From the NCBI GenBank assembly GCA_036609835.1, contig GCA_036609835.1_4358.1: a DNA stretch of 44,717 nt; one strand, 5' to 3'. The notes under the pieces are model-generated. The model ran no database searches. It was not told the DNA's origin and saw nothing but the letters and a program-made list of their open reading frames with translations. A program made the translations under genes and the position numbers. This stretch comes from a phage. How positions within the stretch are numbered: position 1 is the stretch's first letter; each line of letters starts with the position of its first letter. This document shows, in pieces, positions 4,006-43,164 of this stretch.

Positions 4006-4008
4006 AAA

Positions 4009-7745: not shown

Positions 7746-8097
7746 CGTTTCTACCCTCGAAAATAGCGTCTAAGCTCATGATGATGTCAGATTCAAACAT
7801 GCCTATATTCTGGCCTGAAACGGTGCTATATGCCACTAAATCCGACCATCTTAACTGTTCACGCGGATACATCTTGATGCCATCATCGTCCACTCGGCGG
7901 GTGAATTTGATTTCCCTGTACTTCTCGAAGGTGGTTAATAGCTCAGGGGGGCATTCTGGCCCGGTGTCCTGCGTTGCTTCCGGCGCGTCTTGCATAACCC
8001 CCATAGCAATTAGCGCGGCTTTATGCCCGTCGGAGATACTGTCAAACTCCCGCCGTTTGTGGCGAGTTATGAAGTTCCAACGGGCAAACTGGAGCAA
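7738..8097 (-). CDS. Tail assembly chaperone, T-like segment; probably expressed as a -1 frameshift extension of the upstream G-like ORF
   Basis: No ATG or RBS; frame stays open about 50 nt into the 3' end of ORF 8103..8519 in the -1 frame; lies directly upstream of tape measure. Confidence 0.5.
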   Translation of the reverse strand: MLQFARWNFITRHKRREFDSISDGHKAALIAMGVMQDAPEATQDTGPECPPELLTTFEKYREIKFTRRVDDDGIKMYPREQLRWSDLVAYSTVSGQNIGMFESDIIMSLDAIFEGRNDG

Positions 8098-8102
8098 CGC
8101 GT

Positions 8103-8519
8103 CTACTTTTCCTGCAATTGGTGAAGCTGTTCGTTGTGGAAAACAACAACGTGTTCAGCGAGGCGTTTATATTGTGAAAAAAGAGTATTCAGGTTCTCTT
8201 TATTAAATTCATCGTCGAGACTCCAACCGTTAACCAGTTCAAGTGCTAACTGGCGGTTAAGGTCCGTCGCGGCGTCTTCCATCTTAATGTTATATTCCGA
8301 GAAATCTTTCAGTTCCTCGCATTTATCACGAAGCGGCTTCAGTTTACCTAACGACGCGCGGTACGCCAGGGTAAATGCACGCATGGCTTTAACCGCAACG
8401 TCTGCCTCCGGTGAAACAACGTTCAGCCACTCCCCTGAATCGGTGCCGTCTTTCAGTGGGATCGGCATACGGGCGCCTTTTTCTGCCTCAGCTTCGTAAT
8501 AAAAATCAGAAAGTTTCAT
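8103..8519 (-). CDS. Tail assembly chaperone (lambda G-like), 138 aa
   Basis: Acidic protein upstream of tape measure with AAAGGA RBS; ends ...CAGGAAAAGTAG, overlapped by an open -1 frame. Confidence 0.6.
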   Translation of the reverse strand: MKLSDFYYEAEAEKGARMPIPLKDGTDSGEWLNVVSPEADVAVKAMRAFTLAYRASLGKLKPLRDKCEELKDFSEYNIKMEDAATDLNRQLALELVNGWSLDDEFNKENLNTLFSQYKRLAEHVVVFHNEQLHQLQEK

Positions 8520-8626
8520 TCTTTAATCCTTTGGTTAAGAGGTTACGGGTTAAGGTTAATGCGCCAGACGGGAACCACCCGCTTTTCGTGTGCGACACTA
8601 GGCGCAAAATTATTCTATCACATTAC

Positions 8627-8655
8627 TTGCACACCCCAATATAATAGTGTACTAT
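8627..8655 (+). promoter_or_regulatory. Sigma70-type promoter TTGCAC-N17-TACTAT with AATAG-N4-CTATT palindrome, driving the plus-strand insert operon
   Basis: ttgcacaccccaatataatagtgtactat; 19-mer gcacaccccaatataatag is repeated exactly at 18182; same motif in reverse at 29839-29867. Confidence 0.6.
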
Positions 8656-8696
8656 TCACTTACACCAACGATGTTATCCCAAACAGGAGCTACACC

Positions 8697-8888
8697 ATGA
8701 CGGGTATTACTATGTTCTTCTTAATCATTATCGTTTTAGTTTATTTTATTCCATTTCTCGTGGCGCATATGCGCGACCATAAAGCGAAATTAGCGATATT
8801 CATGGCTAATCTGTTTCTTGGATGGGTTCTGCTGCCGTGGGTATTTATTTTAATCTGGGCTTGCAACTCGAATGTCAAAGAGAAGTGA
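8697..8888 (+). CDS. Small membrane protein of the superinfection-immunity (Imm-like) family, 63 aa
   Basis: ATG 8697 after AAACAGGAG; MTGITMFFLIIIVLVYFIPFLVAHMRDHKAKLAIFMANLFLGWVLLPWVFILIWA matches the YF.P..A..R.H....I...N..LGW...W...L.WA signature recalled from memory. Confidence 0.6.
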   Translation: MTGITMFFLIIIVLVYFIPFLVAHMRDHKAKLAIFMANLFLGWVLLPWVFILIWACNSNVKEK

Positions 8889-8925
8889 GCTAGTATAGGA
8901 CAAATCCTAAACACGAGGAATAAAC

Positions 8926-10056
8926 ATGGCCCGGAAGAAAATAACCGACGAACAGTTGCAGGAAGAATTGAACGCCGGTATGAAGAATGTAGATATCGCC
9001 CGTAAATACGGCATCTCAGACCGCGTTATTCGTATCCGTAAAGCGAAGCTGGCTAAGAAAGGCGTAGGCCACGGGCGCGACGTTAGTCACCTTGTACCAG
9101 ACGGTTACAAGATTAAAGGAACGTCGTCCCTGGTGGACGAGTTCGGCAACACTAAGTTGCAATGGGTTAAGACCGACGCTGATGCCGAACGTCAGGTTGA
9201 ATTGATGAAAGCCGTAATAGAGGGCATGAAGTCAGAGATTACGCCCGTTGCGCCTGTTAAACCGGCACGAGCCAAACGTGACGATAAACTACTCAATCTT
9301 TACACGGTATCTGATTTCCATCTCGGTATGCTGGCATGGGCCGATGAGAGCGGCGACGACTGGGACATGAAGATTGCAGAAGACCTGTTCTCTCGGTGGT
9401 TCGACGCGGCGTTTCAGAAAGCACCGGATGCAGGAACAGGAGTTATTAACCTGCTTGGGGACTTCGCACACTTCGATAGTCTTGATGCCGTTACCCCCGA
9501 GTCGCGCCATGTATTAGATGCGGATACTCGCTATCAGAAACTGGTACGTTACATGATTCGTATGGTCCGCCGTGTTGTTGATATGGCGCTGGTTAAGCAT
9601 CACACAGTAAAACTTTTAATCGTTCAAGGTAACCACGACCCTGTTGGCTCCGTATGGCTTGCCGAAATGTTCACGGTTTTATACTCAAACGACAGCCGAG
9701 TGATTGTTGATACGTCGCCGGATGTTTACAAGATGGTGCAACACGGCAAAACGACGCTGTTCTTCCATCACGGGCATAAAGCACGATTCGACGCTATCGA
9801 ACCGGTTATGATTGCCAAGTTCCGTAAAGCGTTCGGCGAGAGTGTTTACAGCTACGCCCACGTAGGCCATCTGCACCACCAGAAGATTGTAGAAAGCCGT
9901 AACATGATTGTTGAGCAACACCGCACCTTAGCGGCTAAAGACGCCTACGCCTCTCGCGGCGGATGGATGTCGGGCCGCAGTGCAAATGTAATTACTTATA
10001 GCGCCGAATATGGCGAGGTCGCACGTTTAACTATTTCACCGGAGATGCTGGGATGA
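8926..10056 (+). CDS. N-terminal HTH domain fused to a calcineurin-like metallophosphoesterase, 376 aa
   Basis: HTH-like NVDIARKYGISDRVIRIRKAK; phosphoesterase motifs SDFHLG, LLGDFAH, VQGNHD, FFHHGH, HVGHLHH in canonical order. Confidence 0.6.
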   Translation: MARKKITDEQLQEELNAGMKNVDIARKYGISDRVIRIRKAKLAKKGVGHGRDVSHLVPDGYKIKGTSSLVDEFGNTKLQWVKTDADAERQVELMKAVIEGMKSEITPVAPVKPARAKRDDKLLNLYTVSDFHLGMLAWADESGDDWDMKIAEDLFSRWFDAAFQKAPDAGTGVINLLGDFAHFDSLDAVTPESRHVLDADTRYQKLVRYMIRMVRRVVDMALVKHHTVKLLIVQGNHDPVGSVWLAEMFTVLYSNDSRVIVDTSPDVYKMVQHGKTTLFFHHGHKARFDAIEPVMIAKFRKAFGESVYSYAHVGHLHHQKIVESRNMIVEQHRTLAAKDAYASRGGWMSGRSANVITYSAEYGEVARLTISPEMLG

Positions 10057-10541
10057 AAGATATTGTAATTTTCGATTTAGACGGGACATTGGCCGACGGT
10101 ACCAATCGCTTACACCTGTTACCAAAAGATAACTACGGAGAAACGTGGGCGTGGAAGCCATTTAACATGGCCTGCAAAGATGACGCTCCGATATACGACA
10201 ATATCCATTTGTGTAGCGTACTGTGGCATTCCGGACTTACTATAATTATCCTTACCGGGCGAAGTGATGACGCTGAGGAGGAGACTCGCGAATGGTTACG
10301 AGAGAATAACGTTAGGTTTGACACGCTAATCATGCGCAGCAAACACGACAACAGAAAAGACATCGTAATTAAAGAAGAGGTGTTGCGTGCTTTCGGACTG
10401 GAAAGAATCTTGTGTGCGTTCGACGACTCTCCAGCGGTAATAAAGCATTTCCGTGACCTCGGCATAACCGCACACGCAGTTACCGAATACGACTGTAACG
10501 GGAACTCTACACACTTAAAACCACACGGGAGCGATAAATAA
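10053..10541 (+). CDS. HAD-family phosphatase resembling the 3'-phosphatase domain of T4 polynucleotide kinase-phosphatase, 162 aa
   Basis: DxDGT motif (IVIFDLDGTLADG), GRSDD, RKDIVIKEEVL and FDDSPAVIKHFRDLGI align by eye with T4 Pnkp C-terminal motifs; ATGA start/stop overlap. Confidence 0.6.
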   Translation: MKDIVIFDLDGTLADGTNRLHLLPKDNYGETWAWKPFNMACKDDAPIYDNIHLCSVLWHSGLTIIILTGRSDDAEEETREWLRENNVRFDTLIMRSKHDNRKDIVIKEEVLRAFGLERILCAFDDSPAVIKHFRDLGITAHAVTEYDCNGNSTHLKPHGSDK

Positions 10542-11095
10542 TGGCTAAGGTAATTATTCTTAATGGCCCTGCGGGTTGCGGGAAAGACACGCTTGCTATG
10601 GCGCTGGTAGAAATGGGCTTTGCGAAAGGAACTACCAGTTTCAAGAATCCAATGTTCAATATTGCTTTGGCAGCGTTAGGCCAGGATGCTTACCACGAAT
10701 TTCTCGACGGCTACGACGACCGGGCGCGGAAAGAAAAACCCGAGGGTTTTCTTAATGGGTTGTCCCGCCGCCGGTTAATGATTGCCATTTCTGAGCAATT
10801 CATTAAACCGGTATTCGGCGATGATTATTTCGGTAAGTATCTTGCTGAAAACTTGCCTGACGGCGACGAAGTTTTTGTAGTGTCCGATGGTGGATTCGCC
10901 AGTGAAGTTGCCCCTATCGTCGCCGCGGGGCATGACGTGCGAATCGTCCGCCTCCATCGTGACGGCTATACGTTCATCTGCGATAGCCGTGGCTATCTGT
11001 ACGATGTTAGTGGTGTAAAAGATTACGACACCTACATCATACCGGGTGACGTTAAATCGAACGTTATAGACATTGCTTTAAAATTAGGTTTGTAA
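10541..11095 (+). CDS. Deoxynucleoside monophosphate kinase-like P-loop kinase (T4 gp1-like), 184 aa
   Basis: Walker A GPAGCGKDT; RRRLMIAISEQF and VFVVSDGGFASEV...VRIVRLHRDG resemble T4 dNMP kinase blocks recalled from memory. Confidence 0.55.
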   Translation: MAKVIILNGPAGCGKDTLAMALVEMGFAKGTTSFKNPMFNIALAALGQDAYHEFLDGYDDRARKEKPEGFLNGLSRRRLMIAISEQFIKPVFGDDYFGKYLAENLPDGDEVFVVSDGGFASEVAPIVAAGHDVRIVRLHRDGYTFICDSRGYLYDVSGVKDYDTYIIPGDVKSNVIDIALKLGL

Positions 11096-11126
11096 GAAAA
11101 AGGCCCCGAAAGGGGCCTTAGTTTTA
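11096..11126. terminator. Bidirectional rho-independent terminator
   Basis: aaaaaggccccgaaaggggccttagtttt: GC stem with A-run upstream and T-run downstream; between convergent kinase and major tail genes. Confidence 0.7.
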
Positions 11127-12296
11127 TGCGTAGGTGATACGTTGAATTACGATAGACGACTGGTACTGATTGCCGGTAGCCTGGCCTTCAATGGACTGAG
11201 TGATTGACTCAGGCCCACCAATCTCAGGTGTAACCGCCGTAAGCTCTGCACGTTTCAAACTGAAAGACATAGCCCCGTTTACCCCTGCCAGAATAGAGTT
11301 AATCTCTACCTGCTGCTCGTTGATAAACTTCTGAATCATCGCCATGTCGTACAGCTTGCCAGAGATAGAGAATGTGTTAGCTGCGCGGCTACGTTCCACA
11401 AAAGCCACATTAGTGTTGCCTAGTTCGAACTGCGCGGACGCGCTGTTATCGTTGGTGATAGTCAGGCTATCGCAACGCAACGGGGTAGCGCCGTCGAACA
11501 CGGAAACGTCAACCGAAGAGAACGGCTCATCACCAAAAGTAACAGATGAGAAGTTGGAACCGGTCGGCGGCGTAGTGAGAATCTCCTGACTGCGACCGAT
11601 GAATGGGAAGCTGCCAGTTACCATCGCGTTAACAGCCTGCTCGATGGTAAAACCAGAAACTTCCACGCCTTTGGTTAACGTGTACGCGTCAGTACCGCCG
11701 CACTGGCCTTTGTACCAGGTAAGGATAGAGAACGTCTTACACGTGTTACCGGTTTCCAGCGTGTCGCCAGTTTTAGCCTTACTAGTTTTTGTCTCGGTGG
11801 TCAGGGTGTGTTGGATGCCCGCACCAGTAACAACCGTAGCCGTTACTGCAGTAACAATAAATGGTTTTGCGTTATCGCCTGTTAAATCGGTAAACGCAAT
11901 CAGGTCGCCTACCCCAACTCCGTCAGTGATAAAGCTGCCGGTGGCACGTGTGAACGTCTTGCCAGCCGGTGCGACGGTAATCGATAGCCCTGACAGAGAT
12001 ACGCCAGCCTGCCACGTAGAGCCTAAAGCCCCGGCTAGCCAGTCATCCTGGCTTTTAGAGCTAAGCTCAATAGCGTATTCTCCGCTAACCTGCTTGTTAC
12101 CGGTGCGGATGGATGTGGTTTCTCGGCTGCCGTCAAGTTCGTTGGAGGTCAGCGTGTCGCGGGTAATGGCAGGAACGCCGCCCGTGTTGCGCAACGGCGA
12201 CCATACCGGGTTAGCCGGTGTTACGCCCGGGGTCACTTCCGCCACATAGAATTGCGCGGTATTCGCGCCCTTAAAAGGAGTTGTAGCCATATTCAC
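11124..12296 (-). CDS. Major tail protein (putative), 390 aa
   Basis: Ser/Thr/Gly-rich ORF between tail completion genes and chaperones, followed by a strong terminator. Confidence 0.55.
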   Translation of the reverse strand: MNMATTPFKGANTAQFYVAEVTPGVTPANPVWSPLRNTGGVPAITRDTLTSNELDGSRETTSIRTGNKQVSGEYAIELSSKSQDDWLAGALGSTWQAGVSLSGLSITVAPAGKTFTRATGSFITDGVGVGDLIAFTDLTGDNAKPFIVTAVTATVVTGAGIQHTLTTETKTSKAKTGDTLETGNTCKTFSILTWYKGQCGGTDAYTLTKGVEVSGFTIEQAVNAMVTGSFPFIGRSQEILTTPPTGSNFSSVTFGDEPFSSVDVSVFDGATPLRCDSLTITNDNSASAQFELGNTNVAFVERSRAANTFSISGKLYDMAMIQKFINEQQVEINSILAGVNGAMSFSLKRAELTAVTPEIGGPESITQSIEGQATGNQYQSSIVIQRITYA

Positions 12297-12709
12297 AGCC
12301 TCTTGGTGAATGCAATAAAGTTAATTGACAATGGTCGTTTGGCCCATCCGTTTTCTACAATCAGCGGCCCCAGGCTAACCGATTGAACCTCGGCGCAGAT
12401 GTCGTTACGTGAAAATGACTTACCTGCTTTAAACGCCGTGTTAAGTAAGTCTGCCATTTTATTGATCGGCGCGCTACCTTTCACCGATGCGTAGTTAATA
12501 TCTACCTGATAGACGCCAGCGCGTTGTTCCGTGAAGAATAAGTCAGCCTGCTCGGTATCCGCCAGCAACATGTAACTTGCCAGATACGGCGTATCTGTTG
12601 ACGTCGGCGCGTCGATGTTTTCAAGCGCTACCTTGATGCCGTTGGTGGTTCCGAAGGCTACCAGCGGCACATCAAACGCTTTTGTTAAGTCCTCAAAGTA
12701 GCCCATCAT
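12293..12709 (-). CDS. Tail completion / tail terminator protein (putative), 138 aa
   Basis: Position immediately upstream of major tail gene; overlapping stop/start. Confidence 0.4.
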   Translation of the reverse strand: MMGYFEDLTKAFDVPLVAFGTTNGIKVALENIDAPTSTDTPYLASYMLLADTEQADLFFTEQRAGVYQVDINYASVKGSAPINKMADLLNTAFKAGKSFSRNDICAEVQSVSLGPLIVENGWAKRPLSINFIAFTKRL

Positions 12710-13101
12710 CTCACCTTGCTAGCTTCTTCGTTAATGAGTTGCTGGAAGCGGGACACGTTAGTCCTGACGAATCCTTGCGGGGCCTGTTGCGACCAGCCAT
12801 ACTCCAGCCGTTGTGCATACGGCAGGTTATTTGTCAGCGTGAACTCATGCCAGTCGGTGGCTTTCAGCACGAAACTTGTAGCGTTTCCTGTTGCTGTGTT
12901 TCCTGATTTATCCGTAGCATCCGTAATCCCGGAAGCAGGAGTACCGCCAGATGCCATCCAGTTCATGCGAAACCGACCCGTATCTACCGGACTCGCCTTT
13001 ATAATAGCGGAAAACAGCTTGATAGACACCTGACGCATCACCTTCTCAGGGTTCTTCTTCGCCTTTTCCACGAACTTAGAGACGTCCAGCGCGAAACTCA
13101 T
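12706..13101 (-). CDS. Neck / tail-completion protein (HK97 gp10-like), 131 aa
   Basis: DTGRFRMNW motif typical of the family as recalled; position in head-tail joining block. Confidence 0.5.
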   Translation of the reverse strand: MSFALDVSKFVEKAKKNPEKVMRQVSIKLFSAIIKASPVDTGRFRMNWMASGGTPASGITDATDKSGNTATGNATSFVLKATDWHEFTLTNNLPYAQRLEYGWSQQAPQGFVRTNVSRFQQLINEEASKVR

Positions 13102-13456
13102 TTTCTCACCTGAATAAAGTAGGCCACAACATCATCGTTAACCACCTTCTTCTCAATGGCTACGACGGACCATTGCTCGCCGCCGAATTGCACTTTGTCT
13201 TCCATCTTAGGAACGACGCTGTAATCGGCTTTAACAATCATGTCACCAGCCTGAATCGTCGTACCGTTCACCAGACCCGCATTAACAGGAACCGGAACGG
13301 CCTTCAACGGCAACACTTCGTCCGCAGACCAGACGTACTCACCGAGAACTTCATCCCACACTTTCGAGCCAGCGCGAATCAGAGATACCGTGCTACCGAA
13401 TTTGGTTAGCAGGCGTGTACCCACGCCTTGCATACGTTTACTGAAAGCAGTGCTCA
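13098..13456 (-). CDS. Head closure / head-tail adaptor protein (putative), 119 aa
   Basis: ATG 13456 overlaps upstream stop (TGATG); position in connector block. Confidence 0.4.
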
Positions 13457-14071
13457 TCAGGCAGCCTCCAGTCTCGAAATAACCAGTAGCGCGGACGGTG
13501 CCGTGCCCCATGCAGTTACAGTAGCCACCTGCGGGTATACGCCTCCGAAGTTAGTCCCGGCGCTATCTCGCATAATCTGAACGGCGAATGTTTGCCCGGC
13601 GGTTGGGTTAATCACTACACGGGATTCAATAGGGATGGTGGTTTCCGAGCTAACAAGTTTCGTAGCTGCTGGTGAGCCGTACTGAGCGCCGTTAATGAGG
13701 ATACGCGACAACAGGATAGACGTTCCGCTAGCGCCGGAGCGACCGGCCTGTAACTTGATGCGAACGGCATAGTTACCCGCGGTGTTGAATGTAACCAGCC
13801 CCGCAGCATTAATCATTACCGGGTCAGATGCACTACCCTGAGCAGAGCCGAACGATACCTGCAACGCCGTATCTACTGCGGTAGGCGCTTGCGCTACTGT
13901 CGACGCAGCGCGGAGAACTTCAACCTCTTTAACACCCGGAGTGGCGTAAATAGGTGAGTCAGCCATCTTGGTTAATACCCCGCGCAACTTCGCAGGCGTA
14001 ATAAGTCCGGTCGTGTTGTCCGGTAGCTCGGAACCGATTAGCGTGAATATCTCTGATTTAGTCTTCGCCAT
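13457..14071 (-). CDS. Virion structural protein of unknown function, 204 aa
   Basis: ORF in head-tail joining block, Ala/Thr/Ser-rich. Confidence 0.4.
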   Translation of the reverse strand: MAKTKSEIFTLIGSELPDNTTGLITPAKLRGVLTKMADSPIYATPGVKEVEVLRAASTVAQAPTAVDTALQVSFGSAQGSASDPVMINAAGLVTFNTAGNYAVRIKLQAGRSGASGTSILLSRILINGAQYGSPAATKLVSSETTIPIESRVVINPTAGQTFAVQIMRDSAGTNFGGVYPQVATVTAWGTAPSALLVISRLEAA

Positions 14072-14073
14072 TT

Positions 14074-14586
14074 TTAACCCCGGTACACGTTAAACGAGAA
14101 ACCATTGTTAAGACCGCCACACAATAACGGGCGTAAAGCGTCGTCAGCAGCGGTAATCGCGGTCGTAGCGCCACTGTTGCCATTGTTGAAGTAGGTCACT
14201 GTTACCGCACCCTCGACACGCTCAGTCTGCACGGCGCGACCGTCTGAGTTAGCCCGGACTTCGGTGCCCTCGCCATATGTAGCGGCAGCGATTACCTGCG
14301 CAAGAATCACCTGTTTCGGAATGGCGTTGTTGACCACCGGGAACCCGTTTAACGTAACGCCGGTGCGGGGGTATGCAAGAGACTGTTCGGCGGATACGCG
14401 GTGGCCACACATCTGAGGTTCTGCAAGCCCGACATAAGTAGCACCGTTGCGCAGTGCCACCTCTGCGGCAGTATCGTCTGCGGGTAACTCAAGACCGTAA
14501 TTAGCCGCTAACGCGCGGGCGTCAGCCAGACTAATGTAACTGTCGGCGTTAGGTACTATCGACCCGTCTTCCACGATTAGCGGCAT
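14074..14586 (-). CDS. Head-tail connector protein (gp6-like), 170 aa
   Basis: N-terminal ISLADARALAANYG...D block resembles the gp6-like connector family signature; position after head genes. Confidence 0.5.
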   Translation of the reverse strand: MPLIVEDGSIVPNADSYISLADARALAANYGLELPADDTAAEVALRNGATYVGLAEPQMCGHRVSAEQSLAYPRTGVTLNGFPVVNNAIPKQVILAQVIAAATYGEGTEVRANSDGRAVQTERVEGAVTVTYFNNGNSGATTAITAADDALRPLLCGGLNNGFSFNVYRG

Positions 14587-14589
14587 AAA

Positions 14590-14769
14590 TTATTCCTCTG
14601 ATTTACGGCGACGACGCTTAGCACCACCGCCGTTGTTGTGCGCTTCTTCGTTGTCCGGTTGAGTCGCAACCAGTTCATCCGCTTCTACCACACCGCGAAC
14701 AGGCATCACCTGACCGTCTACAATATCAACGTGGGTGTACTTTTCGCGGATTACATAATTATCTGCCAT
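14590..14769 (-). CDS. Small hypothetical protein, 59 aa (not in ORF track)
   Basis: ATG 14769 with AAGGAAAGG RBS; basic C-terminus GGGAKRRRRK. Confidence 0.3.
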   Translation of the reverse strand: MADNYVIREKYTHVDIVDGQVMPVRGVVEADELVATQPDNEEAHNNGGGAKRRRRKSEE

Positions 14770-14805
14770 GACCTTTCCTTATTACGGCCCCGAAGGGCCG
14801 CTGTA

Positions 14806-15156
14806 TTAAGACACAGTTGCTACAGTGCTGCTGGAGATAATATTACCATACGCATCGTGAACAACCACTTTATACGTACCGGAGTCGGCGGCAGTGGTCG
14901 ATGCTTTAGCATAGGTAGCTGCGGTAGCCCCGGCGATGGCGTTGTTATTCTTATACCACTGGTAAGAATATGGCTCCAGACCGCCAGTTACCACTACGGT
15001 AAGAGTCATAGTCTGCCCCACCGTAACTGCGGTGGTAGCCGCAAGCGCGGTAGAAAAAGACGCTGGCGAGATATTCGCCATATCGATTTCAACCTGACCA
15101 TCGGCAGGAGAATCATCAGAAACACCGGTAATACGACGTTTGATTACATCAACCAT
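14806..15156 (-). CDS. Ig-like domain protein (putative capsid decoration), 116 aa
   Basis: C-terminal TLTVVVTGGLEPYSYQWYKNN...GTYKVVV resembles bacterial Ig-like domains. Confidence 0.5.
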   Translation of the reverse strand: MVDVIKRRITGVSDDSPADGQVEIDMANISPASFSTALAATTAVTVGQTMTLTVVVTGGLEPYSYQWYKNNNAIAGATAATYAKASTTAADSGTYKVVVHDAYGNIISSSTVATVS

Positions 15157-15168
15157 TTTTAAGCTCCT

Positions 15169-15468
15169 TTAGCTTACGGTTCCTGCGTTTTTAAGCGCAG
15201 TCAACAGATCTGCTACGGTAGTGCGCAGCGCGGTAACATCGGTTCGGAGTTTGTTGTACTCCGCTACAAGGGCGTCGAACTCTTCCTTAGTCGGTGCCGC
15301 GGCGGACTGCACCCCGGCGGCGGCGGTAATGGCCCCAGGTGCAGTCACAGGAGCTGACTTTTTAACCCCACCAACTACGCTGGTAGTAGCAGGCGTGACT
15401 GGGATATCAAAGTCACCGAAGTCGACATTCTGAAGGCTGCGCGGCAAGCCTTTTCCGGTCTTAGCCAT
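15169..15468 (-). CDS. Hypothetical head-associated protein, 99 aa
   Basis: ORF directly downstream of major capsid gene and its attenuator hairpin. Confidence 0.4.
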   Translation of the reverse strand: MAKTGKGLPRSLQNVDFGDFDIPVTPATTSVVGGVKKSAPVTAPGAITAAAGVQSAAAPTKEEFDALVAEYNKLRTDVTALRTTVADLLTALKNAGTVS

Positions 15469-15491
15469 AATTTACCTCTTAGTAAATGAAA

Positions 15492-15511
15492 AGAGGGACC
15501 GAAGTCCCTCT
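15492..15511 (-). terminator. Hairpin attenuator / terminator after the major capsid gene
   Basis: agagggaccgaagtccctct perfect 8-bp stem; T-rich run follows on the minus strand. Confidence 0.5.
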
Positions 15512-15527
15512 CGATTATAGCTTAACC

Positions 15528-16577
15528 TTAAGCACCGACACCAGTTACCAGGAAGGCAATCGGTACGTGCTTACGGTCAACAACACGGTTCCAGTTGGAG
15601 GCGTTCGCCAGGTCCTGCCAGGAAGCAGAACGTGCGACAGTCTCGGTGCCGTTACCGGTGATTACTGCGCTGGTGAAGCTGTATCCCAGTGGGTGCAGTA
15701 ACCAGGTCTTACGGGTCCACAGGGTTTCTACACCACCGCCGTTGCCTCGGGATGGTTCGCGCTCGTATTCCAGCGGGTTGGACGGAGAACCTTCACCGTA
15801 ACCGATAGCGCCGTTGCCGAAGATGACGGAGATGAACTTACGGTCATTACCAGTACCGACTACGGTCATACTGTCGTCAACAATCACGCGGTAGCCCTGG
15901 TAGGTGGCGAACATGGTGTTGTTGTCAGCGTCTTTGATGAAGTCAATAAGCTGCTGCTTACGGGCCTGCGCATAAACGAAGCTATGCATCGCGATAGCGC
16001 CTAGCACTTCACCGCCGTTGCCCATCAGCGCATCACCCATAGTCTGGGTAGCGTCGATGAACGCGCCCGCATCGAAGCCCAGAGTAGCAGACACGTCGAT
16101 AACCATGTCGTTCTGCTCGTGGTAAGCATCGGTAGCAGCTACGTTGTCGTTGTACAGACCGAGCGCGGTAGCAATCAGACGGCGTTGTGCCTGGCGCTGC
16201 CAGAAGTTATCCAGACGGGACGCTACGGATTGCAGCGGGTTCTGGCTGGTCAGTTCGACAGTCAAATCCGCCTGACCGAAACCTTCGTTCAGGTATGCAA
16301 CGCGGGCCATCATCTCACCGGTCTGCACGTTACGCGGGGTGGCGATGTCCTGGTATACGTCGTTCGAGTAGTTCGGCTCGATAGAGGTATCAATCGCTTT
16401 CCAGAAAGGAATATTAGCGACGTTGGACGGGCCGCGGGCAATCTCGGCGGCGTATGGGGTCGGGGTGAGAATACCAGACTGGAAGAACGCGGTTTTTTCT
16501 ACCGGGTCCTCGGTCATATAAGACGCCAGGACCGGGATGTTGCCAGTTACGATATCGCCGATAGTGGTAATTGCCAT
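15528..16577 (-). CDS. Major capsid protein, 349 aa
   Basis: ORF after scaffold gene, followed by attenuator hairpin; size and position typical of an HK97-fold capsid protein. Confidence 0.7.
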   Translation of the reverse strand: MAITTIGDIVTGNIPVLASYMTEDPVEKTAFFQSGILTPTPYAAEIARGPSNVANIPFWKAIDTSIEPNYSNDVYQDIATPRNVQTGEMMARVAYLNEGFGQADLTVELTSQNPLQSVASRLDNFWQRQAQRRLIATALGLYNDNVAATDAYHEQNDMVIDVSATLGFDAGAFIDATQTMGDALMGNGGEVLGAIAMHSFVYAQARKQQLIDFIKDADNNTMFATYQGYRVIVDDSMTVVGTGNDRKFISVIFGNGAIGYGEGSPSNPLEYEREPSRGNGGGVETLWTRKTWLLHPLGYSFTSAVITGNGTETVARSASWQDLANASNWNRVVDRKHVPIAFLVTGVGA

Positions 16578-16579
16578 TA

Positions 16580-17281
16580 TTATTTCCTCAGGGCTTTAAG
16601 TTGCCGTTCAAATTCGGCAGGGTTCGATTTATACAGGGCTAAACGCTCTGCTTCACTCATGTCTTTAAACGCTGGTGCGGCCCCGCCGCCTTTGCTACCG
16701 GAAGCCCCGCCGCCGGAAGCTGCATTTGCTTTGATCAAATGCGAAAACGCCTTGTGTTCGCGCAGGTATTTGCGGAACTGTTCCGGGTCAGTCGTGATTA
16801 CGTTACCGTCTGCACCAACAAACTTAGTAACCACATCATCGCCTTCGAACTCAGTCTTAACGAACGGCGCAAGAATGTCCACTGCTTCTGGGGTAATAAA
16901 GTCACCCGCGAAAGAGCCTAGCACCGCTTTACGTTCGCTGCCGAGGATACGCTCTGCCATTCTGGAGATGCGACCGTCTTTCTCGGCTAACACCGGGTCA
17001 TACTGGCTACGAATCGTCTTTTCGAACTCATCCATCTTACCAGCGGCTTTTAACGCCTCCTGGTGCGCGCGCTGCCGTTCTTCTTCGGCCTCTTTTGCTT
17101 TGCGAGCGGCTTCTTTCTTCTCCGCCAACAATGCTTCCTGATTAGCCTTAAGCCCGGCAACTTCTTTCTCAATCAGCGCCTGAACTTCTTCAGCGGTGAA
17201 CATTTTCGGCGCGTCACCGCCACCAGCTTTATCTTCTGCCCCAGCTTCTTCCTGGAACGGATAACGTAAAAAACGATTCAT
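16580..17281 (-). CDS. Scaffolding protein (putative), about 234 aa
   Basis: Charged alpha-helical sequence (EKKEAARKAKEAEEERQRAHQEALKAAGK) immediately upstream of capsid gene; ATG 17281 chosen. Confidence 0.55.
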   Translation of the reverse strand: MNRFLRYPFQEEAGAEDKAGGGDAPKMFTAEEVQALIEKEVAGLKANQEALLAEKKEAARKAKEAEEERQRAHQEALKAAGKMDEFEKTIRSQYDPVLAEKDGRISRMAERILGSERKAVLGSFAGDFITPEAVDILAPFVKTEFEGDDVVTKFVGADGNVITTDPEQFRKYLREHKAFSHLIKANAASGGGASGSKGGGAAPAFKDMSEAERLALYKSNPAEFERQLKALRK

Positions 17282-17363
17282 AGTCAGTATGTCCCCTGGA
17301 CGTTGGAACCCGGGCCACCCGGATTTACATGTCAAGAATAAATTATTCCAACATGCAAGGCAA

Positions 17364-17627
17364 CTATTCCAGAATATTCCTCACATAATCCTGCAACTGG
17401 AATACTTTCAGACGCAGTTGCCGCACGCATTCGGCGTTCTGAACGTCTATAGCCAAATCCTCGTCAGCATCGCTACTTGGCGCTGCCAGTTTGCACGGAG
17501 GCTGCATCATCGTCGTATCCGGTAATGGAATTAGCGTTTGCGACGGCGCGGGACTTGAGCAGGACGCGAGCATCGTCAAAAGTGCACACGCTGCGACCAG
17601 GCGTTTTAATGTACTTAACGACTTCAC
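17364..17627 (-). CDS. Outer-membrane spanin (Rz1-like lipoprotein), 87 aa
   Basis: Lipobox LTMLASC then Pro-rich SSPAPSQTLIPLPDTTMMQPP; starts inside the i-spanin gene in another frame and extends past its end. Confidence 0.65.
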   Translation of the reverse strand: MKSLSTLKRLVAACALLTMLASCSSPAPSQTLIPLPDTTMMQPPCKLAAPSSDADEDLAIDVQNAECVRQLRLKVFQLQDYVRNILE

Positions 17628-17859
17628 GGGTAATCACCTCTGATTTCGTCTTGCCTTCGTTGTCAGCGGCGGCGGCCTTTGATTCATCCTGCTGCTGCCG
17701 TTGTGTTTTCTTCGCTAACTCAGCCTGTACTTTCTGCTGTTGCTGCGAAACGAGATTCGCCCGGCCTTCGTTCCAACCGCTGCGATACCGGTAGATGCCG
17801 TGTGTGTAAGCCAGGATGATGAAACATGCTCCTGCCACGACAGTTGCTTTAAGATTCAT
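17473..17859 (-). CDS. Inner-membrane spanin (Rz-like), 128 aa
   Basis: N-terminal TM helix ATVVAGACFIILAYTHGIY, then Gln/Lys-rich coiled coil; overlapped by Rz1-like ORF. Confidence 0.65.
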   Translation of the reverse strand: MNLKATVVAGACFIILAYTHGIYRYRSGWNEGRANLVSQQQQKVQAELAKKTQRQQQDESKAAAADNEGKTKSEVITREVVKYIKTPGRSVCTFDDARVLLKSRAVANANSITGYDDDAASVQTGSAK

Positions 17860-18179
17860 GTTTCCCCCTTTCTCGATAAGTAAAGCCCCGCCTTAAAGCG
17901 GGGCGCTAGTCCTTATCATTTAAACATAGAAACGGCGTAATCTCAGTAAACCCGTTACTTTTTACACAAGCAATAGAGTATGGCCCTTCCGAACGCGTCA
18001 GCGTAACTACACTCAGGACTTACGTCCCGCTCCGTTACCTGCCCGCGCCGCGGTCGCTTGTTCATACTTCACAAGCTCAGGTGGAGCTTATCATATTTTT
18101 AGTGAAAAGTCAACTATTCGAATAGTTTATTCCAACATTTACAATTCGGAGGAATAACTGGAATACGTAAATAAATAGT

Positions 18180-18208
18180 TTGCACACCCCAATATAATAG
18201 GGTACTAT
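18180..18208 (+). promoter_or_regulatory. Sigma70-type promoter TTGCAC-N17-TACTAT, near-identical to the one at 8627
   Basis: ttgcacaccccaatataatagggtactat followed by AAACAGGAGG RBS and ATG 18236. Confidence 0.6.
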
Positions 18209-18235
18209 TCAGTTAACTTAAACAGGAGGTGAAAA

Positions 18236-18439
18236 ATGTATGCAATTTGCGAAGTAGTTCAAGAGTTCGATGAAGAGTTCGACGGTGACTTGTGCCGGGT
18301 TAAAAAGGTTCTGCAGGTTTTCCCTGACGCAATGTCTGCTTACAAGGCATTAGATATATTTGAACCTGGAAGATACGGGGATTATGACACTGTTCTGAGG
18401 GTTGTCCATGAGCAGGATTTAAACACAAGATTCCGTTGA
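18236..18439 (+). CDS. Hypothetical protein, 67 aa (moron)
   Basis: Opposite strand to flanking head genes; own promoter, strong RBS and downstream terminator; acidic. Confidence 0.6.
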   Translation: MYAICEVVQEFDEEFDGDLCRVKKVLQVFPDAMSAYKALDIFEPGRYGDYDTVLRVVHEQDLNTRFR

Positions 18440-18440
18440 A

Positions 18441-18470
18441 AACTAAGGCCCCTTAATGGGGCCTTTTATC
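18441..18470. terminator. Bidirectional rho-independent terminator
   Basis: aaactaaggccccttaatggggccttttatc. Confidence 0.65.
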
Positions 18471-18930
18471 ATTCTGGTTTAGCGACCTTCGCCACTTTAC
18501 TGACGGCCTCTACGCCACCGGCATCGGTAACTTTAACGAAGTATTCACCAACTGCATTAACCGTCAGAGACAAGGCCTCTTCCGGGGCGTTTACCACTTC
18601 CTTACCGTCTTTGTACCAGGTCAGAGCATACGGTTCTTTACCCGCCTTAACTTCGACAGTGATAGTTGCGCTGCCATCTGTAAGTTCAGTGTCTTTCGGT
18701 TGCACAGAGAAATACACGTCACCAGCGTCCGCCAGATACGGAATTTCATAAAGCATACCCGCGGCAGAGAGTGCGATACCTGTCTTGTCTGCAAACGGCA
18801 TATCGTCTACTGGTGTACCGAGTACACTTTCATCTTCAATAAACACCACGTTCTCGCCAGAGCCAGACACGCGGGCGTACTGGACTACGCGACGCGACGG
18901 TACATCAGTTACTTTGAAAAAGCCCATCAT
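18469..18930 (-). CDS. Ig-like domain protein (putative head decoration), 153 aa
   Basis: ATITVEVKAGKEPYALTWYKDGKEV...GEYFVKVTD resembles an Ig-like fold. Confidence 0.45.
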   Translation of the reverse strand: MMGFFKVTDVPSRRVVQYARVSGSGENVVFIEDESVLGTPVDDMPFADKTGIALSAAGMLYEIPYLADAGDVYFSVQPKDTELTDGSATITVEVKAGKEPYALTWYKDGKEVVNAPEEALSLTVNAVGEYFVKVTDAGGVEAVSKVAKVAKPE

Positions 18931-19973
18931 TATTCCCCTTTCAGATAATCAGCAACACGTTTATCGAGTTCCGCCATCTGCTTAAGCGTGAGCGGATTCC
19001 CGAAACCATCTACAGATATTACGCGAAACTCTTCCGGCGATATACCGCTGTTACGGAAAATCTTACCTCGCACCGGGCCGAGGGCCTGGTCCTGAAACCA
19101 CGCCGGTTGTTGTTTAAGGAACTCGTAGTAAGTGGTGTCTGCGCTTACCTGGGTTCCACCTTCTGCGCCCTTAGCTGCGCGTTTTGCGCCCTTATCGAGG
19201 AAGTCGAACTCTGAACTGATTACCGGTGCCGTGGTACTTCTGCACCCAAAATGGGCCGGAGGCATCGGCCCTTTACCGATTTCCCACATCATTCCGTCTC
19301 TGGCCCTGCAAATCGTGCTGGTACGGCTGTCCAGCGTTGATACCCACTCGTACCTATCGATGATGTCGTCGTTCTGGCGGTACGTCTCGTTGCGGGCTTC
19401 GTTGGACACGTGAGACAGCGCAGTACGGATTACTGTAGCTGCATGTTTCTCTGATACGTCAGCCAGCCCGCCTTTACCGACTACTTCTTTAACAATCTGC
19501 CGTGTTGTCTTGCCCTGAACAAAGCCCATCTTAACGCCGGTGACCAGGCGCGCCACCTCCGCTTCACCCCAACCTGACATCAGCTTGGTGAAATCAACGG
19601 GCTTGTCGCTCAATGATAATGGTTGAAACTCGGCAGCGGCCCATACCTGCTCAGCGGTAGGCGTAACAAATTCCGCGTCTACGTTGGCGGTCAGTGTCTT
19701 TACGTTCCACTCAGCCTCATACGCCGCCAGTTCCTTAAGGTCTTCTGTCAGCTTTGTCTGCCAGTCGCCCGTAAGCCCCACCAGTGCTTCTTCAAGGTCG
19801 CGTAACAATTTATTCAGTCGGGCAGTGCTTCGCCCGTCGTCACCGAATAACAGCACCTGCCGTTTTATTTCGTCCCGCATCTCCTGAATGAACGGTGCTA
19901 GGTCTTTCACTTCACCAGATGCGGTGCGTTGCAGCCAAATCTGGTGGCTGATTAGTGATGTCAGTAAGCTCAT
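18930..19973 (-). CDS. Minor head / head morphogenesis protein (Mu F-like), 347 aa
   Basis: Position after portal; C-terminal STICRARDG...PPAHFGCRS Cys/His block typical of this family. Confidence 0.6.
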   Translation of the reverse strand: MSLLTSLISHQIWLQRTASGEVKDLAPFIQEMRDEIKRQVLLFGDDGRSTARLNKLLRDLEEALVGLTGDWQTKLTEDLKELAAYEAEWNVKTLTANVDAEFVTPTAEQVWAAAEFQPLSLSDKPVDFTKLMSGWGEAEVARLVTGVKMGFVQGKTTRQIVKEVVGKGGLADVSEKHAATVIRTALSHVSNEARNETYRQNDDIIDRYEWVSTLDSRTSTICRARDGMMWEIGKGPMPPAHFGCRSTTAPVISSEFDFLDKGAKRAAKGAEGGTQVSADTTYYEFLKQQPAWFQDQALGPVRGKIFRNSGISPEEFRVISVDGFGNPLTLKQMAELDKRVADYLKGE

Positions 19974-20054
19974 ATACCCTCCTGTTTCGATATGACAATC
20001 ATATCAGTCGGTAACGTATTGGCATAATCATACGCATTTAAGGTTAAAAAGAGC

Positions 20055-20085
20055 TTGATTAAATTCTACATTCAAATGTAGAATT
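20055..20085 (+). promoter_or_regulatory. Promoter TTGATT-N18-TAGAAT overlapped by a perfect 11-bp-arm palindrome (candidate operator)
   Basis: aattctacatt-ca-aatgtagaatt at 20062-20085; AAACAGGAG RBS and ATG 20116 follow. Confidence 0.55.
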
Positions 20086-20115
20086 TAAACGTACACTTAA
20101 ACAGGAGAAATACAC

Positions 20116-20769
20116 ATGAAACTGCAAACATTAGAGTTCCCTTATGGAGAAATCACTTTTGACCGTGAAAACTTTATTAACGTAAACGAGCTGGTTGACC
20201 AGATGAACCGTTGGCGTTTAGACAACGGCATGGGGGCCAGAGAGCTTCGCCAGGTCATGGCAACGGATGGCTTCAAGATTTTCAAGGAGGAATGCGAAAA
20301 ACAACTCGGAATCGAGAATGCCATAAGGGCGACGAAAGGCCGAAACGGTCGCACCTTTGCATGTCTCCATCTGGCAGTATATATTGCTGAGCAATACAGC
20401 GCCTATTTCCATTTCCTCGTTATCGACCGCTTTATCACACAACGGCAGGTAGAACTACGAAACATTGGCGCGGTGAGCTTTGTCGAGCTTAACGCTGCCG
20501 TTAGTCGAATGATCGAGCGCACGGAGGGAAGAATTGGCCACAGTGGACACTTCATACAGGTGGCTAAAGCGGTAAAGGAATCCGTAGATATCCGCGACGT
20601 AACGGGTTTCGATACATGGGACTCTCAGGATGCGAAGACCAATCAGTTGCGAAGTGACATCCAGAAAGCTCTGGTGACGCTTCTTGACATGGAGGCCGTT
20701 AATACATGGGGTGAACTGAAAGAGGCGATACCTCGGGTTGTGCGTAAATGTGCGGCTAATATACGTTAA
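20116..20769 (+). CDS. KilA-N-like domain protein (putative), 217 aa (moron)
   Basis: KGRNGRTFACLHLAVYIAEQYSAYFHF resembles the conserved KilA-N core; own promoter/operator and terminator; opposite strand to portal and head genes. Confidence 0.45.
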   Translation: MKLQTLEFPYGEITFDRENFINVNELVDQMNRWRLDNGMGARELRQVMATDGFKIFKEECEKQLGIENAIRATKGRNGRTFACLHLAVYIAEQYSAYFHFLVIDRFITQRQVELRNIGAVSFVELNAAVSRMIERTEGRIGHSGHFIQVAKAVKESVDIRDVTGFDTWDSQDAKTNQLRSDIQKALVTLLDMEAVNTWGELKEAIPRVVRKCAANIR

Positions 20770-20796
20770 AACTAAGGCCCCTAGCGGGGCCTTTCT
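20770..20796. terminator. Bidirectional rho-independent terminator
   Basis: aaactaaggcccctagcggggcctttctattt. Confidence 0.65.
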
Positions 20797-28866: not shown

Positions 28867-28895
28867 ATAGTAGCCTATTCTATCTTAGTGTGCAA
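28867..28895 (-). promoter_or_regulatory. Sigma70-type promoter TTGCAC-N17-TACTAT (minus strand)
   Basis: Reverse complement reads ttgcacactaagatagaataggctactat. Confidence 0.55.
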
Positions 28896-43135: not shown

Positions 43136-43164
43136 AAAAGGCCCCGTTTGGGGCCTTAGTTTTA
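43136..43164. terminator. Bidirectional rho-independent terminator between convergent HNH and tailspike genes
   Basis: aaaaggccccgtttggggccttagtttt. Confidence 0.7.

What the first reader, a model, noticed from the sequence alone, without database searches (positions are those of the whole stretch)
11096..20796. Strong bidirectional terminators inside the late structural cluster
Hairpin-plus-T-tract terminators at 11096-11126, 18441-18470 and 20770-20796 flank each moron and also face the minus-strand late transcripts. Further hairpins follow the capsid gene (15492-15511) and the Ig-like gene (14785-14800). Expressing downstream head and tail genes therefore needs either internal late promoters or antitermination. 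This suggests an undescribed late-transcription control mechanism.
Basis: partly seen in the sequence, partly recalled or inferred. Interest (0 to 1): 0.35.

Follow-up and report, generated by a model that had tools for sequence, protein, structure and literature searches.

The report
Terminator hairpins splitting phage late genes
The hairpins are real, family-conserved transcription stop signals that divide this coliphage's structural genes into separate units, each apparently restarted by its own promoter; that is ordinary, except that one restart site carries a conserved, undescribed structured RNA leader.

Summary
The window is a complete Kagunavirus (Guernseyvirinae, K1G-like) genome. The three hairpins exist as described. 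They share one stem, AAGGCCCC-loop-GGGGCCTT. A fourth copy lies at 43138-43157, so all four convergent gene junctions carry one (0 expected by chance). Close relatives keep them, and a 2020 paper on phage Golestan already listed them as predicted Rho-independent terminators.

Each hairpin closes only the 3' end of a plus-strand cassette. Relatives without a cassette mostly keep a late-strand terminator at the same sites.

Every terminator on the late strand is followed by a promoter-like element before the next late gene. Two of these are conserved across relatives as TTGACT-N14-TGnTAAGCT and TGnTAGAAT. Internal promoters therefore explain late expression, and no new control mechanism is required.

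One element was unexpected. The promoter at 18113-18085 drives a roughly 215-nt leader. Its 108-nt core (18078-17971) is a structured RNA with compensatory changes across five Kagunavirus sequence types. Jerseyviruses carry a diverged homologue with its stems substituted on both sides. Some relatives hold a second copy at the head of the long late-direction arm. The RNA is absent from Rfam, and its role is untested: leader, small RNA, or put-like antiterminator.

The parts
11100..11119 (.). Bidirectional intrinsic terminator between the tail tube gene (11124-12296, -) and the dNMP-kinase-like gene (10541-11095, +). Stem AAGGCCCC/GGGGCCTT, loop GAAA. Late-strand tail is TTTCTTAC; + strand tail is AGTTTTAT.
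   Evidence: Present after the tube gene in nearly all relatives, with T-runs of up to 12.
18445..18465 (.). Hairpin terminator between the 67-aa cargo ORF (+) and the Hoc-like gene (18469-18930, -). Same stem, loop TTAAT.
20774..20793 (.). Hairpin terminator between the 217-aa cargo ORF (+) and the portal gene (20799-22268, -). Same stem, loop TAGC.
43138..43157 (.). Fourth copy of the same hairpin (loop GTTT), at the junction where the replication arm (+) meets the end of the tail/tailspike unit (-).
15491..15512 (-). Terminator-like hairpin directly after the major capsid gene (15528-16577). 9 bp, tail TTTTCATTT. Probably an attenuator or mRNA 3' stabiliser.
   Evidence: Listed as T04 in the Golestan paper.
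14784..14801 (-). GC-rich hairpin after the second Hoc/Ig-like gene (14806-15156). It has no T-tract, so it is not a canonical terminator.
18085..18113 (-). Conserved late-strand promoter: TTGACT (18113-18108), 17-nt spacer, TG (18093-18092), n, TAAGCT (18090-18085).
   Evidence: In relatives the TG and both hexamers stay fixed while 'n' is A, C or G. Jerseyvirus SE2 has TAGACT-N14-TGtTACGCT. It fails the scan tool's -10 threshold (3 of 6 matches).
17971..18078 (-). 108-nt structured RNA core of the leader. It comprises hairpin P1 plus a long irregular stem, P2-P5.
   Evidence: 97.9% of cells are paired, against 33-37% in slid controls. 7 pairs show compensatory changes. No Rfam match.
17860..17970 (-). 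3' half of the leader. It includes the hairpin GCCCCGC-TTTAAG-GCGGGGC followed by TTTACTTAT (17904-17885), which lies 25 nt upstream of the spanin ATG (17859).
   Evidence: In SE2 the hairpin is kept through compensatory changes but has no U-tract.
18180..18208 (+). Promoter with palindromic operator (TTGCAC-17-TACTAT, AATAG..CTATT) that drives the 67-aa cargo ORF at 18236-18439.
20055..20084 (+). Promoter TTGATT-18-TAGAAT, overlapped by a 13-bp perfect palindrome (20059-20088), upstream of the 217-aa cargo ORF at 20116-20769.
19998..20025 (-). Late-strand promoter-like site ATGCCA-16-TGaTATGAT, 25 nt upstream of the head-morphogenesis gene (start at 19973).
   Evidence: TGATATGAT is kept in relatives L011 and L038, which carry the same cargo.
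8612..8639 (-). Late-strand promoter-like site TTGGGG-16-TGaTAGAAT, followed by a conserved structured leader (8611-8520) ahead of the tail assembly chaperone and tape-measure genes.
   Evidence: TGnTAGAAT is conserved with n = A, C or T. The leader stem shows a compensatory change in Jersey-type loci.
8627..11095 (+). Plus-strand cassette: operator-promoter (TTGCAC 8627-8632 ... TACTAT 8650-8655), then superinfection-immunity (8697-8888), exonuclease, PNK phosphatase and dNMP-kinase-like genes. It ends at the 11100 hairpin.

Best explanation
The hairpins are ordinary Rho-independent terminators of the host RNA polymerase. They sit where plus-strand gene cassettes, inserted against the direction of the structural genes, meet the late genes head-on. 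There they stop transcription from both sides, preventing antisense read-through and polymerase collisions.

This cuts the roughly 31-kb late-direction arm into separate transcription units:
- TerS, TerL and portal
- head morphogenesis and Hoc
- spanin, scaffold, capsid and onward to the tail tube
- tail chaperone onward to the tailspike

Each unit appears to be restarted by its own sigma-70-type promoter, mostly of the extended -10 kind, in the divergent gap downstream of the terminator. The weaker hairpins inside units (after the capsid gene, and upstream of the spanin) most likely act as partial terminators or RNA-end stabilisers that set gene-dosage ratios.

Shown here: the hairpins, their non-random placement, their conservation, the conserved promoter-like motifs, and the structured leader RNA.

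Inferred, not shown: actual termination, promoter activity and timing.
For: - The genome is a Kagunavirus, and the gene order matches K1G and SE2.
- The motif occurs 4 times against 0 expected, and it sits at 4 of 4 convergent junctions.
- The stems are kept in 39 IMG/VR relatives.
- The same hairpins were predicted by ARNold as terminators T01-T09 in phage Golestan.
- Relatives without a cassette still have a late-strand terminator: GCCCCGAAAGGGGC+TTTCTTAT after the portal gene and GCCCCGAAAGGGGC+TTTTTTA after Hoc.
- A promoter-like element follows each late-strand terminator: 24168-24139, 20025-19998, 18113-18085 and 8639-8612.
- Two of these are conserved across many relatives, with variation confined to the free 'n' of TGn.
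- No strong hairpins occur in the tail-gene block 570-8519.
- RNA-seq of Kagunavirus K1B4 places most genes, structural ones included, in a single 'middle' class (PMC12645636).
Against: - Promoter-like hits are not enriched over shuffles in any region (13 vs 12.3; 9 vs 9.4; 21 vs 21.1), so the case for the promoters rests on position and conservation.
- The promoter at 18113-18085 has a poor -10 hexamer (TAAGCT, 3 of 6 matches).
- In cassette-free relatives, the 81-bp gap between portal and head morphogenesis holds a terminator but no recognisable promoter. Some read-through must therefore occur there.
- The hairpin at 17904-17885 lies between the 18113 promoter and the spanin gene, so capsid expression needs read-through of it.
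Confidence: 0.7

Rival explanations
1. RNA-mediated processive antitermination. The conserved structured RNA made from the 18113 promoter would stay bound to the transcribing polymerase, as HK022 put RNA does. That polymerase would then read through the hairpins at 17885, 15491 and perhaps 11100, while polymerases arriving from upstream are stopped.
For: - The RNA core starts about +1 to +3 from a strong -35 / extended -10 promoter. It consists of two stem-loop domains with conserved bulges and a conserved single-stranded tail, UUCGGAAGGGCC.
- It is followed by terminator-like hairpins before and inside the capsid-tail unit.
- About 43 of 181 related phage records carry a second, diverged copy with the same promoter at the head of the long late-direction arm. 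This is the same kind of position as putL and putR (put features from PMC9378689).
- No protein antiterminator was recognised.
Against: - A covariance model of this RNA finds nothing in the HK022 immunity region, where the put RNAs lie. Its only hit in HK022 is a chance hairpin at pR'.
- The window and many relatives have a single copy.
- In the second-copy location, another promoter lies directly downstream, so the RNA is not needed to express the following genes.
- In Jerseyvirus SE2 the hairpin upstream of the spanin has no U-tract, so there is little there to antiterminate.
- The strong T-runs after the tube gene suggest that transcription really ends there.
Confidence: 0.12
2. The unit running from the 18113 promoter through the RNA to the 17885 hairpin is a stand-alone small-RNA gene acting in trans on host or phage targets. 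Capsid genes would then be expressed by other means.
For: - The module is a self-contained promoter, structured RNA and terminal hairpin.
- It is 95-99% identical across phages whose flanking genes are 60-95% identical.
- It is duplicated as a module in some genomes, and the central domain has been swapped between copies (L022).
- The second-copy slot in the window holds a different promoter-RNA-terminator unit.
Against: - No other promoter lies between the hairpin and the spanin start, which is only 25 nt away.
- The U-tract is short (UUUACUUAU) and is absent in SE2. This is atypical for an Hfq-type small-RNA terminator.
- No trans target is known.
Confidence: 0.12
3. Protein-mediated antitermination of the lambda Q or N type. 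An unrecognised small early protein would modify RNA polymerase at the 18113 promoter or leader so that it ignores the hairpins.
For: - The layout of promoter, roughly 200-nt leader, hairpin and late genes resembles lambda pR', 6S RNA and tR'. The resemblance to lambda is from established knowledge, and the HK022 pR' sequence was seen.
- A -10-like AAGTAT lies at +10 to +15 in most Kagunavirus types.
- More than 20 small ORFs have no known function.
Against: - No PHROG match to Q, N, gp23-like or other antiterminator families was found.
- The only recognisable regulator is a MerR/Xis-like HTH protein.
- The -10-like element is absent from type C copies and from Jerseyvirus.
Confidence: 0.06
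4. The shared hairpin is mainly a recombination joint. Promoter-cargo-hairpin cassettes would be swapped between phages by short homology at the invariant stem, as proposed for PeSL motifs in T4-type phages. This reading is complementary to the terminator function rather than exclusive of it.
For: - The stem is identical in all copies and all relatives, with no compensatory variation.
- The loops differ (more than 15 variants) and sometimes flip (GAAA/TTTC), as expected from exchange within a palindromic stem.
- Cargo differs at all three sites. At the portal / head-morphogenesis site, 14 of 38 loci carry inserts of 285-1473 bp, and the rest have a gap of 84 bp or less.
- Most inserts at that site (10 of 14 loci) carry the same operator-promoter on the other side.
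- PeSL precedent: PMC2839356 and PMC4122927.
Against: An invariant stem could also reflect selection for an optimal terminator, or recent common descent. No recombination junctions were mapped here.
Confidence: 0.4

Closest known systems
Bidirectional Rho-independent terminators at convergent genes in E. coli and its phages
   Same: GC-rich stem with an A-rich 5' flank and a T-rich 3' flank, placed in the short gap between two convergent stop codons. It serves both strands.
   Different: Here all four copies in the genome share one 8-bp stem sequence. Two of them have an interrupted U-tract (UUAGUUUU) on the late strand.
Morons (promoter-gene-terminator units inserted between conserved phage genes)
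   Same: The plus-strand inserts have their own promoter and terminator, sit between conserved head or tail genes, and vary among relatives.
   Different: They are inserted in the opposite orientation to the late genes. Most use the phage's own early/middle operator-promoter, so they look like members of the phage regulon rather than lysogeny-expressed genes. The largest insert encodes DNA-metabolism enzymes.
PeSL composite promoter / stem-loop cassettes of T4-type phages (PMC2839356, PMC4122927)
   Same: A repeated promoter motif and a repeated stem-loop bracket variable genes in otherwise conserved genomes.
   Different: The phage family and motif sequences are different. No exchange events were demonstrated here.
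Lambda pR' - 6S RNA - tR' late leader, and StxS in Stx phages (PMC7547250)
   Same: A strong promoter, a leader of about 200 nt ending in a hairpin, and then the lysis and structural genes.
   Different: No Q homologue was found. No conserved sigma-dependent pause element was found. The leader here is a conserved, highly structured RNA.
HK022 put RNAs (PMC9378689)
   Same: A structured RNA of two stem-loop domains lying immediately downstream of a promoter. It is present in two diverged copies at the heads of long operons in some genomes.
   Different: It is longer (about 90-108 nt against about 70 nt). No detectable sequence or profile similarity was found. Its function is untested.

Membership tests
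Rho-independent (intrinsic) terminator | Stable GC-rich stem-loop | tested here: met
   8-bp stems with 6 G-C pairs and a dG of -14.9 to -15.8 kcal/mol.
Rho-independent (intrinsic) terminator | U-rich tract directly 3' of the stem on the transcribed strand | tested here: inconclusive
   By the scan's rule, the 11100 hairpin passes on both strands. The 18445 and 20774 hairpins pass on the + strand only. On the late strand they read UUAGUUUU only if the two terminal A-U pairs are opened.
Rho-independent (intrinsic) terminator | Position just after a stop codon, and conserved in relatives | tested here: met
   Also predicted independently in phage Golestan.
Rho-independent (intrinsic) terminator | RNA 3' ends form there in vivo or in vitro | not testable with these tools
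   No Term-seq data are available. The K1B4 RNA-seq paper gives only gene-level values.
Bidirectional terminator | Lies between convergent genes, with an A-tract upstream and a T-tract downstream | tested here: met
   4 of 4 convergent junctions. The shared unit is AAAACT-AAGGCCCC-loop-GGGGCCTT-TTyT.
Moron / mobile cassette | Own promoter and terminator, with presence or absence varying among close relatives | tested here: met
Lambda Q-type late antitermination | Q-family protein encoded by the phage | tested here: not met
   A PHROG scan of 30 small ORFs gave no antiterminator family. Remote homologues cannot be excluded.
Lambda Q-type late antitermination | Promoter followed by a short terminated leader ahead of the late genes | tested here: met
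   Promoter at 18113-18085, a leader of about 215 nt, a hairpin at 17904-17885, then the spanin gene.
Lambda Q-type late antitermination | Conserved -10-like pause element in the initial transcribed region | tested here: not met
   AAGTAT at +10 to +15 occurs only in some types. It is absent from type C copies and from Jerseyvirus.
HK022 put RNA | Similarity to putL/putR in sequence or profile | tested here: not met
   Model R1 gives no hit in the HK022 immunity region. Its one weak hit, at pR', covers only a hairpin. The reverse search was not possible because no put model was available.
HK022 put RNA | Two stem-loop RNA directly downstream of a promoter | tested here: met
   The put features were taken from PMC9378689.
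HK022 put RNA | Suppresses downstream terminators in cis without protein factors | not testable with these tools
   This needs transcription assays.
Rfam RNA families | Match to any curated covariance model | tested here: not met
   No hits at the gathering threshold over the whole window. Only chance-level hits at E<=10 in 17800-18500.

The most novel reading that the evidence does not exclude
The conserved 108-nt structured RNA at the start of the capsid-tail transcript is a new, Guernseyvirinae-specific cis-acting antiterminator RNA, functionally like HK022 put. In many relatives it is also present at the head of the whole late-direction arm. It would license polymerases starting at its own promoter to pass the internal hairpins. 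That would be RNA-only processive antitermination in a virulent siphovirus.
Probability: 0.12. Interest if true: 0.7.

Novelty: new member of a known kind. Interest (0 to 1): 0.33.

Why it matters
The terminators themselves change little. They show that Kagunavirus and Jerseyvirus structural genes are organised as several insulated transcription units rather than one long late operon. They also show that opposite-strand cargo cassettes arrive with a terminator on one side and a promoter region on the other, so they can be inserted without silencing downstream late genes. This is useful for anyone engineering these small phages, which the BASEL paper describes as attractive models for synthetic biology, because the cassette sites and their boundaries are natural insertion points.

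The leader RNA is the one element that could repay experimental work. It is better conserved than the surrounding genes, is supported by covariation, is unannotated or mis-annotated as a 36-aa ORF, and sits exactly where late expression of the capsid genes is decided.

Tried and rejected
- **Rfam.** The whole window at the gathering threshold, and 17800-18500 at E<=10, gave nothing meaningful.
- **Protein antiterminator.** PHROG scans of 30 small ORFs found only a MerR/Xis-like HTH protein.
- **Coding potential of the conserved block.** All six frames are full of stop codons. The 36-aa ORF annotated in some records is frameshifted between RNA types and lacks an ATG in type C copies and in Jerseyvirus. 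It is therefore not a gene.
- **Second copy of the RNA in the window.** None was found by blastn or by the covariance model.
- **Relation to HK022 put.** There was no hit in the HK022 immunity region, where the put RNAs lie. The 16.8-bit hit downstream of gene Q covers only the P1 hairpin and overlaps the pR' -10 region, so I treat it as chance.
- **Genome-wide search of bacterial genomes for the RNA.** Nine pattern matches were found. Only two are genuine by the covariance model, and both look like phage contamination of assemblies.
- **Literature.** I found no paper on transcription start sites, terminators in vivo or small RNAs in Guernseyvirinae.
- **MAFFT-based consensus folding.** It missed the apical hairpin because the alignment was not structural. 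I replaced it with single-sequence folds and a model-based alignment.

Full report
**Identity of the window.** The 12-kb region matches Escherichia phages of the genus Kagunavirus (subfamily Guernseyvirinae; K1G, Golestan, SHAK7858) at 88-94% identity. It also matches hundreds of Salmonella Jerseyviruses at lower identity. Bases 1-127 repeat at 44591-44717, so the window is a whole genome of about 44.59 kb with an assembly overlap. Gene order matches the annotated relatives K1G, SHAK7858 and SE2. One long minus-strand arm runs from about 30.0 kb through small early ORFs, holins and endolysin, TerS/TerL, portal, head genes and tail genes to 570. It then wraps to the tailspike gene at 44643-43162. 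The plus-strand replication arm runs from 30.2 to 43.0 kb.

**Plus-strand inserts.** Three plus-strand inserts interrupt the minus arm.
- 8697-11095 encodes superinfection immunity, exonuclease, PNK phosphatase and a dNMP-kinase-like protein.
- 18236-18439 encodes a 67-aa protein of unknown function.
- 20116-20769 encodes a 217-aa protein (PHROG 'amidase', with a weak KilA-N match).

**The observation.**
- They are copies of one element: AAGGCCCC, a 4-5-nt loop, then GGGGCCTT, usually within AAAACT...TTTyT.
- A fourth copy lies at 43138-43157. The pattern is found 4 times against 0.00 expected. A looser fifth relative, AAGGCCC...GGGCCTT, lies at 37060-37079.
- The four exact copies occupy all four convergent gene junctions of the genome. 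Their stems fold at -15 to -16 kcal/mol.
- By the scan's rule, only the 11100 hairpin counts as a terminator on both strands. The other two have AGTTTT on the late strand, which becomes UUAGUUUU if the terminal A-U pairs are counted as tail.
- The hairpin after the capsid gene (15512-15491) is terminator-like. The hairpin at 14784-14801 has no T-tract.
- Each hairpin closes only the 3' end of an insert. The other end is a divergent promoter region.

**Conservation and prior knowledge.**
- In 39 related IMG/VR contigs the stem GGCCCC/GGGGCC is invariant, while the loops take more than 15 forms and sometimes flip between GAAA and TTTC.
- Supplementary Table S5 of the Golestan genome paper already lists the homologues of essentially all these hairpins as ARNold-predicted Rho-independent terminators. 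They include the bidirectional pair at the tube/kinase junction, the hairpin after the capsid gene and the hairpin upstream of the spanin. The same paper and the fBC-Eco01 paper report predicted terminators without further analysis.
- The hairpins do not depend on the inserts. Relatives with no insert between portal and head morphogenesis (24 of 38 loci) mostly have an 81-bp gap holding GCCCCGAAAGGGGC+TTTCTTAT. Relatives with no insert after Hoc have GCCCCGAAAGGGGC+TTTTTTA.
- One relative (L003) has only 8 nt and no hairpin between portal and head morphogenesis. The terminator there is therefore dispensable.

**The inserts are cassettes.**
- Two of the three window inserts start with the same 36-nt promoter, TTGCAC-17-TACTAT, overlapped by the palindrome AATAG..CTATT (8627-8662 and 18180-18215). 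This belongs to a family of 7-8 operator-promoters that also drive the replication arm. It is the motif that PHIRE found in fBC-Eco01 and Golestan.
- Cargo at the three sites varies widely among relatives. Inserts at the portal site range from 285 to 1473 bp. Ten of the 14 inserts at that site carry this promoter on one side, and 11 of the 14 have a GGCCCC...GGGGCC hairpin between the portal and head-morphogenesis genes.
- The 217-aa cargo has its own promoter, with a 13-bp perfect palindrome.
- This resembles morons and, in its repeated promoter and stem-loop boundaries, the PeSL cassettes of T4-type phages.

**How late genes downstream are expressed.** On the late strand, each terminator is followed by a promoter-like element before the next gene.
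- TGTACA-18-TATAAT (24168-24139) lies upstream of TerS, just after a weak hairpin.
- ATGCCA-16-TGaTATGAT (20025-19998) lies upstream of head morphogenesis.
- TTGACT-N14-TGaTAAGCT (18113-18085) lies upstream of the spanin-scaffold-capsid block.
- TTGGGG-16-TGaTAGAAT (8639-8612) lies upstream of the tail chaperone.

Promoter-like hits are not enriched over shuffles, so their number proves nothing. The last two, however, are conserved in dozens of relatives. In both, the TG and the hexamers stay fixed while the middle base of TGn varies freely, which is what an extended -10 promoter predicts. Jerseyvirus SE2 keeps TAGACT-N14-TGtTACGCT at the same place. The tail-gene block 570-8519 has no strong hairpins.

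The simplest reading is four insulated late transcription units, with partial terminators inside them. Some read-through must still occur. Cassette-free relatives have no recognisable promoter in the 81-bp portal / head-morphogenesis gap. The hairpin at 17904-17885 also lies between the 18113 promoter and the spanin start codon.

**The unexpected element.**
- *Conservation.* The roughly 320-bp non-coding block between the Hoc terminator (or cargo) and the spanin gene is nearly invariant in six Kagunaviruses whose coding flanks differ by 5-10%. It is 95-99% identical in 181 phage records, including 65 Salmonella phages. It has no open frame.
- *Structure.* Downstream of the 18113 promoter lies a 108-nt core (18078-17971, minus strand). 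In five different sequence types it folds into the same shape on its own: a 5' hairpin plus a long irregular stem with an apical tetraloop hairpin.
- *Covariation.* On a model-based alignment of 24 distinct sequences, 97.9% of pair cells are standard pairs, against 33-37% when partners are slid. Seven pairs show changes on both sides, in 44 cells, and 0 of 500 shuffles reach this. That alignment was fitted to the model's structure and so leans towards it. Independent single-sequence folds and the MAFFT-based fold agree on the outer stems.
- *Strand.* Two conserved G-U pairs fix the strand as the late strand.
- *Distribution.* About 43 records have a second copy, 80-83% identical, with the same promoter. 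It sits between the MerR/Xis-like HTH gene and the first early ORF, at the head of the whole late-direction arm. The window has one copy only. Its second-copy slot holds a different promoter, hairpin and terminator unit. Jerseyviruses have a diverged homologue (37-44 bits) in the same position, with every stem substituted compensatorily. The RNA occurs only in this phage group.
- *Known families.* It matches no Rfam family.

**What the RNA does cannot be decided here.**
- A plain structured 5' leader of the capsid-tail mRNA fits best with the internal-promoter model. It also fits the loss of the U-tract after the downstream hairpin in SE2.
- A put-like antiterminator fits its position, its two-domain shape and its duplication at operon heads. 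There is, however, no similarity to the HK022 immunity region, where the put RNAs lie. The second copy is also followed by another promoter.
- A stand-alone small RNA fits its modular duplication and extreme conservation.
- A Q-like protein system finds no support.

**Verdict.** The claim of an undescribed control mechanism is not supported. The residual interest lies in the conserved leader RNA, which is a new RNA family of unknown function.

Noticed in passing
window 17971-18078 (- strand), with promoter 18085-18113 and hairpin 17885-17904: A conserved structured RNA, supported by covariation, lies at the 5' end of the spanin-scaffold-capsid transcript. It is not in Rfam. Many related phages carry a second copy at the head of the late-direction arm.
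   Followed up: yes
window 8627-8662, 18180-18215, 28864-28881, 29828-29857, 33444-33473, 33488-33517, 36314-36343, 39891-39920: A family of sigma-70-type promoters, each overlapped by the palindrome AATAG-N4-CTATT. This is presumably the operator of a phage regulator. The only recognisable DNA-binding protein is the MerR/Xis-like HTH at about 30286-30468.
   Followed up: partly
window 29940-30188 (- strand): The head of the late-direction arm holds a promoter (TTGAAA-18-TATAAT), a 15-bp (G-U-tolerant) hairpin at 30134-30097 and a terminator at 29959-29940. The fold z-score is -4.8. Only about 21 phage records share the whole unit. Other Kagunaviruses have the second RNA copy in this slot.
   Followed up: partly
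window 8520-8611 (- strand): A conserved leader lies upstream of the tail assembly chaperone. Its stem GCGCC...GGCGC becomes GCGUC...GACGC in Jersey-type relatives, a compensatory change.
   Followed up: partly
window 20055-20769: The 217-aa cargo gene (PHROG 'amidase', weak KilA-N match) has a promoter overlapped by a 13-bp perfect palindrome (20059-20088). This suggests autoregulation or a dedicated repressor. The same gene sits at the same site in Salmonella phage SE2.
   Followed up: no
L041 (OR594183.1) 4693-4803 and similar GenBank records: A 36-aa 'hypothetical protein' is annotated across the RNA core. Its frame is broken by the indels that separate the RNA types, and the ATG is missing in type C copies and in Jerseyvirus. 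The annotation is probably spurious.
   Followed up: yes
window 1-127 and 44591-44717: An exact 127-bp terminal repeat. It is most likely an assembly overlap of a circularly permuted genome.
   Followed up: no
L041 record header (OR594183.1): The record's taxonomy line reads Autographiviridae / Kayfunavirus and its name says vB_EcoM. The genome, however, is collinear with Kagunavirus siphoviruses.
   Followed up: no
L104 (JAEWLW010000073.1, 'Bacillota MAG') and L108 (Taishania pollutisoli scaffold48, 738 bp): Both carry genuine copies of the phage RNA (71 and 37 bits). This is probably phage DNA that was mis-binned or is contaminating these assemblies.
   Followed up: no
L003 8935-8947; L007, L028, L034, L037 head-morphogenesis gene: One relative has portal and head morphogenesis only 8 nt apart, with a 65%-identical head-morphogenesis allele. 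Several others have an interrupted head-morphogenesis gene; an intein is annotated in fEg-Eco06.
   Followed up: no
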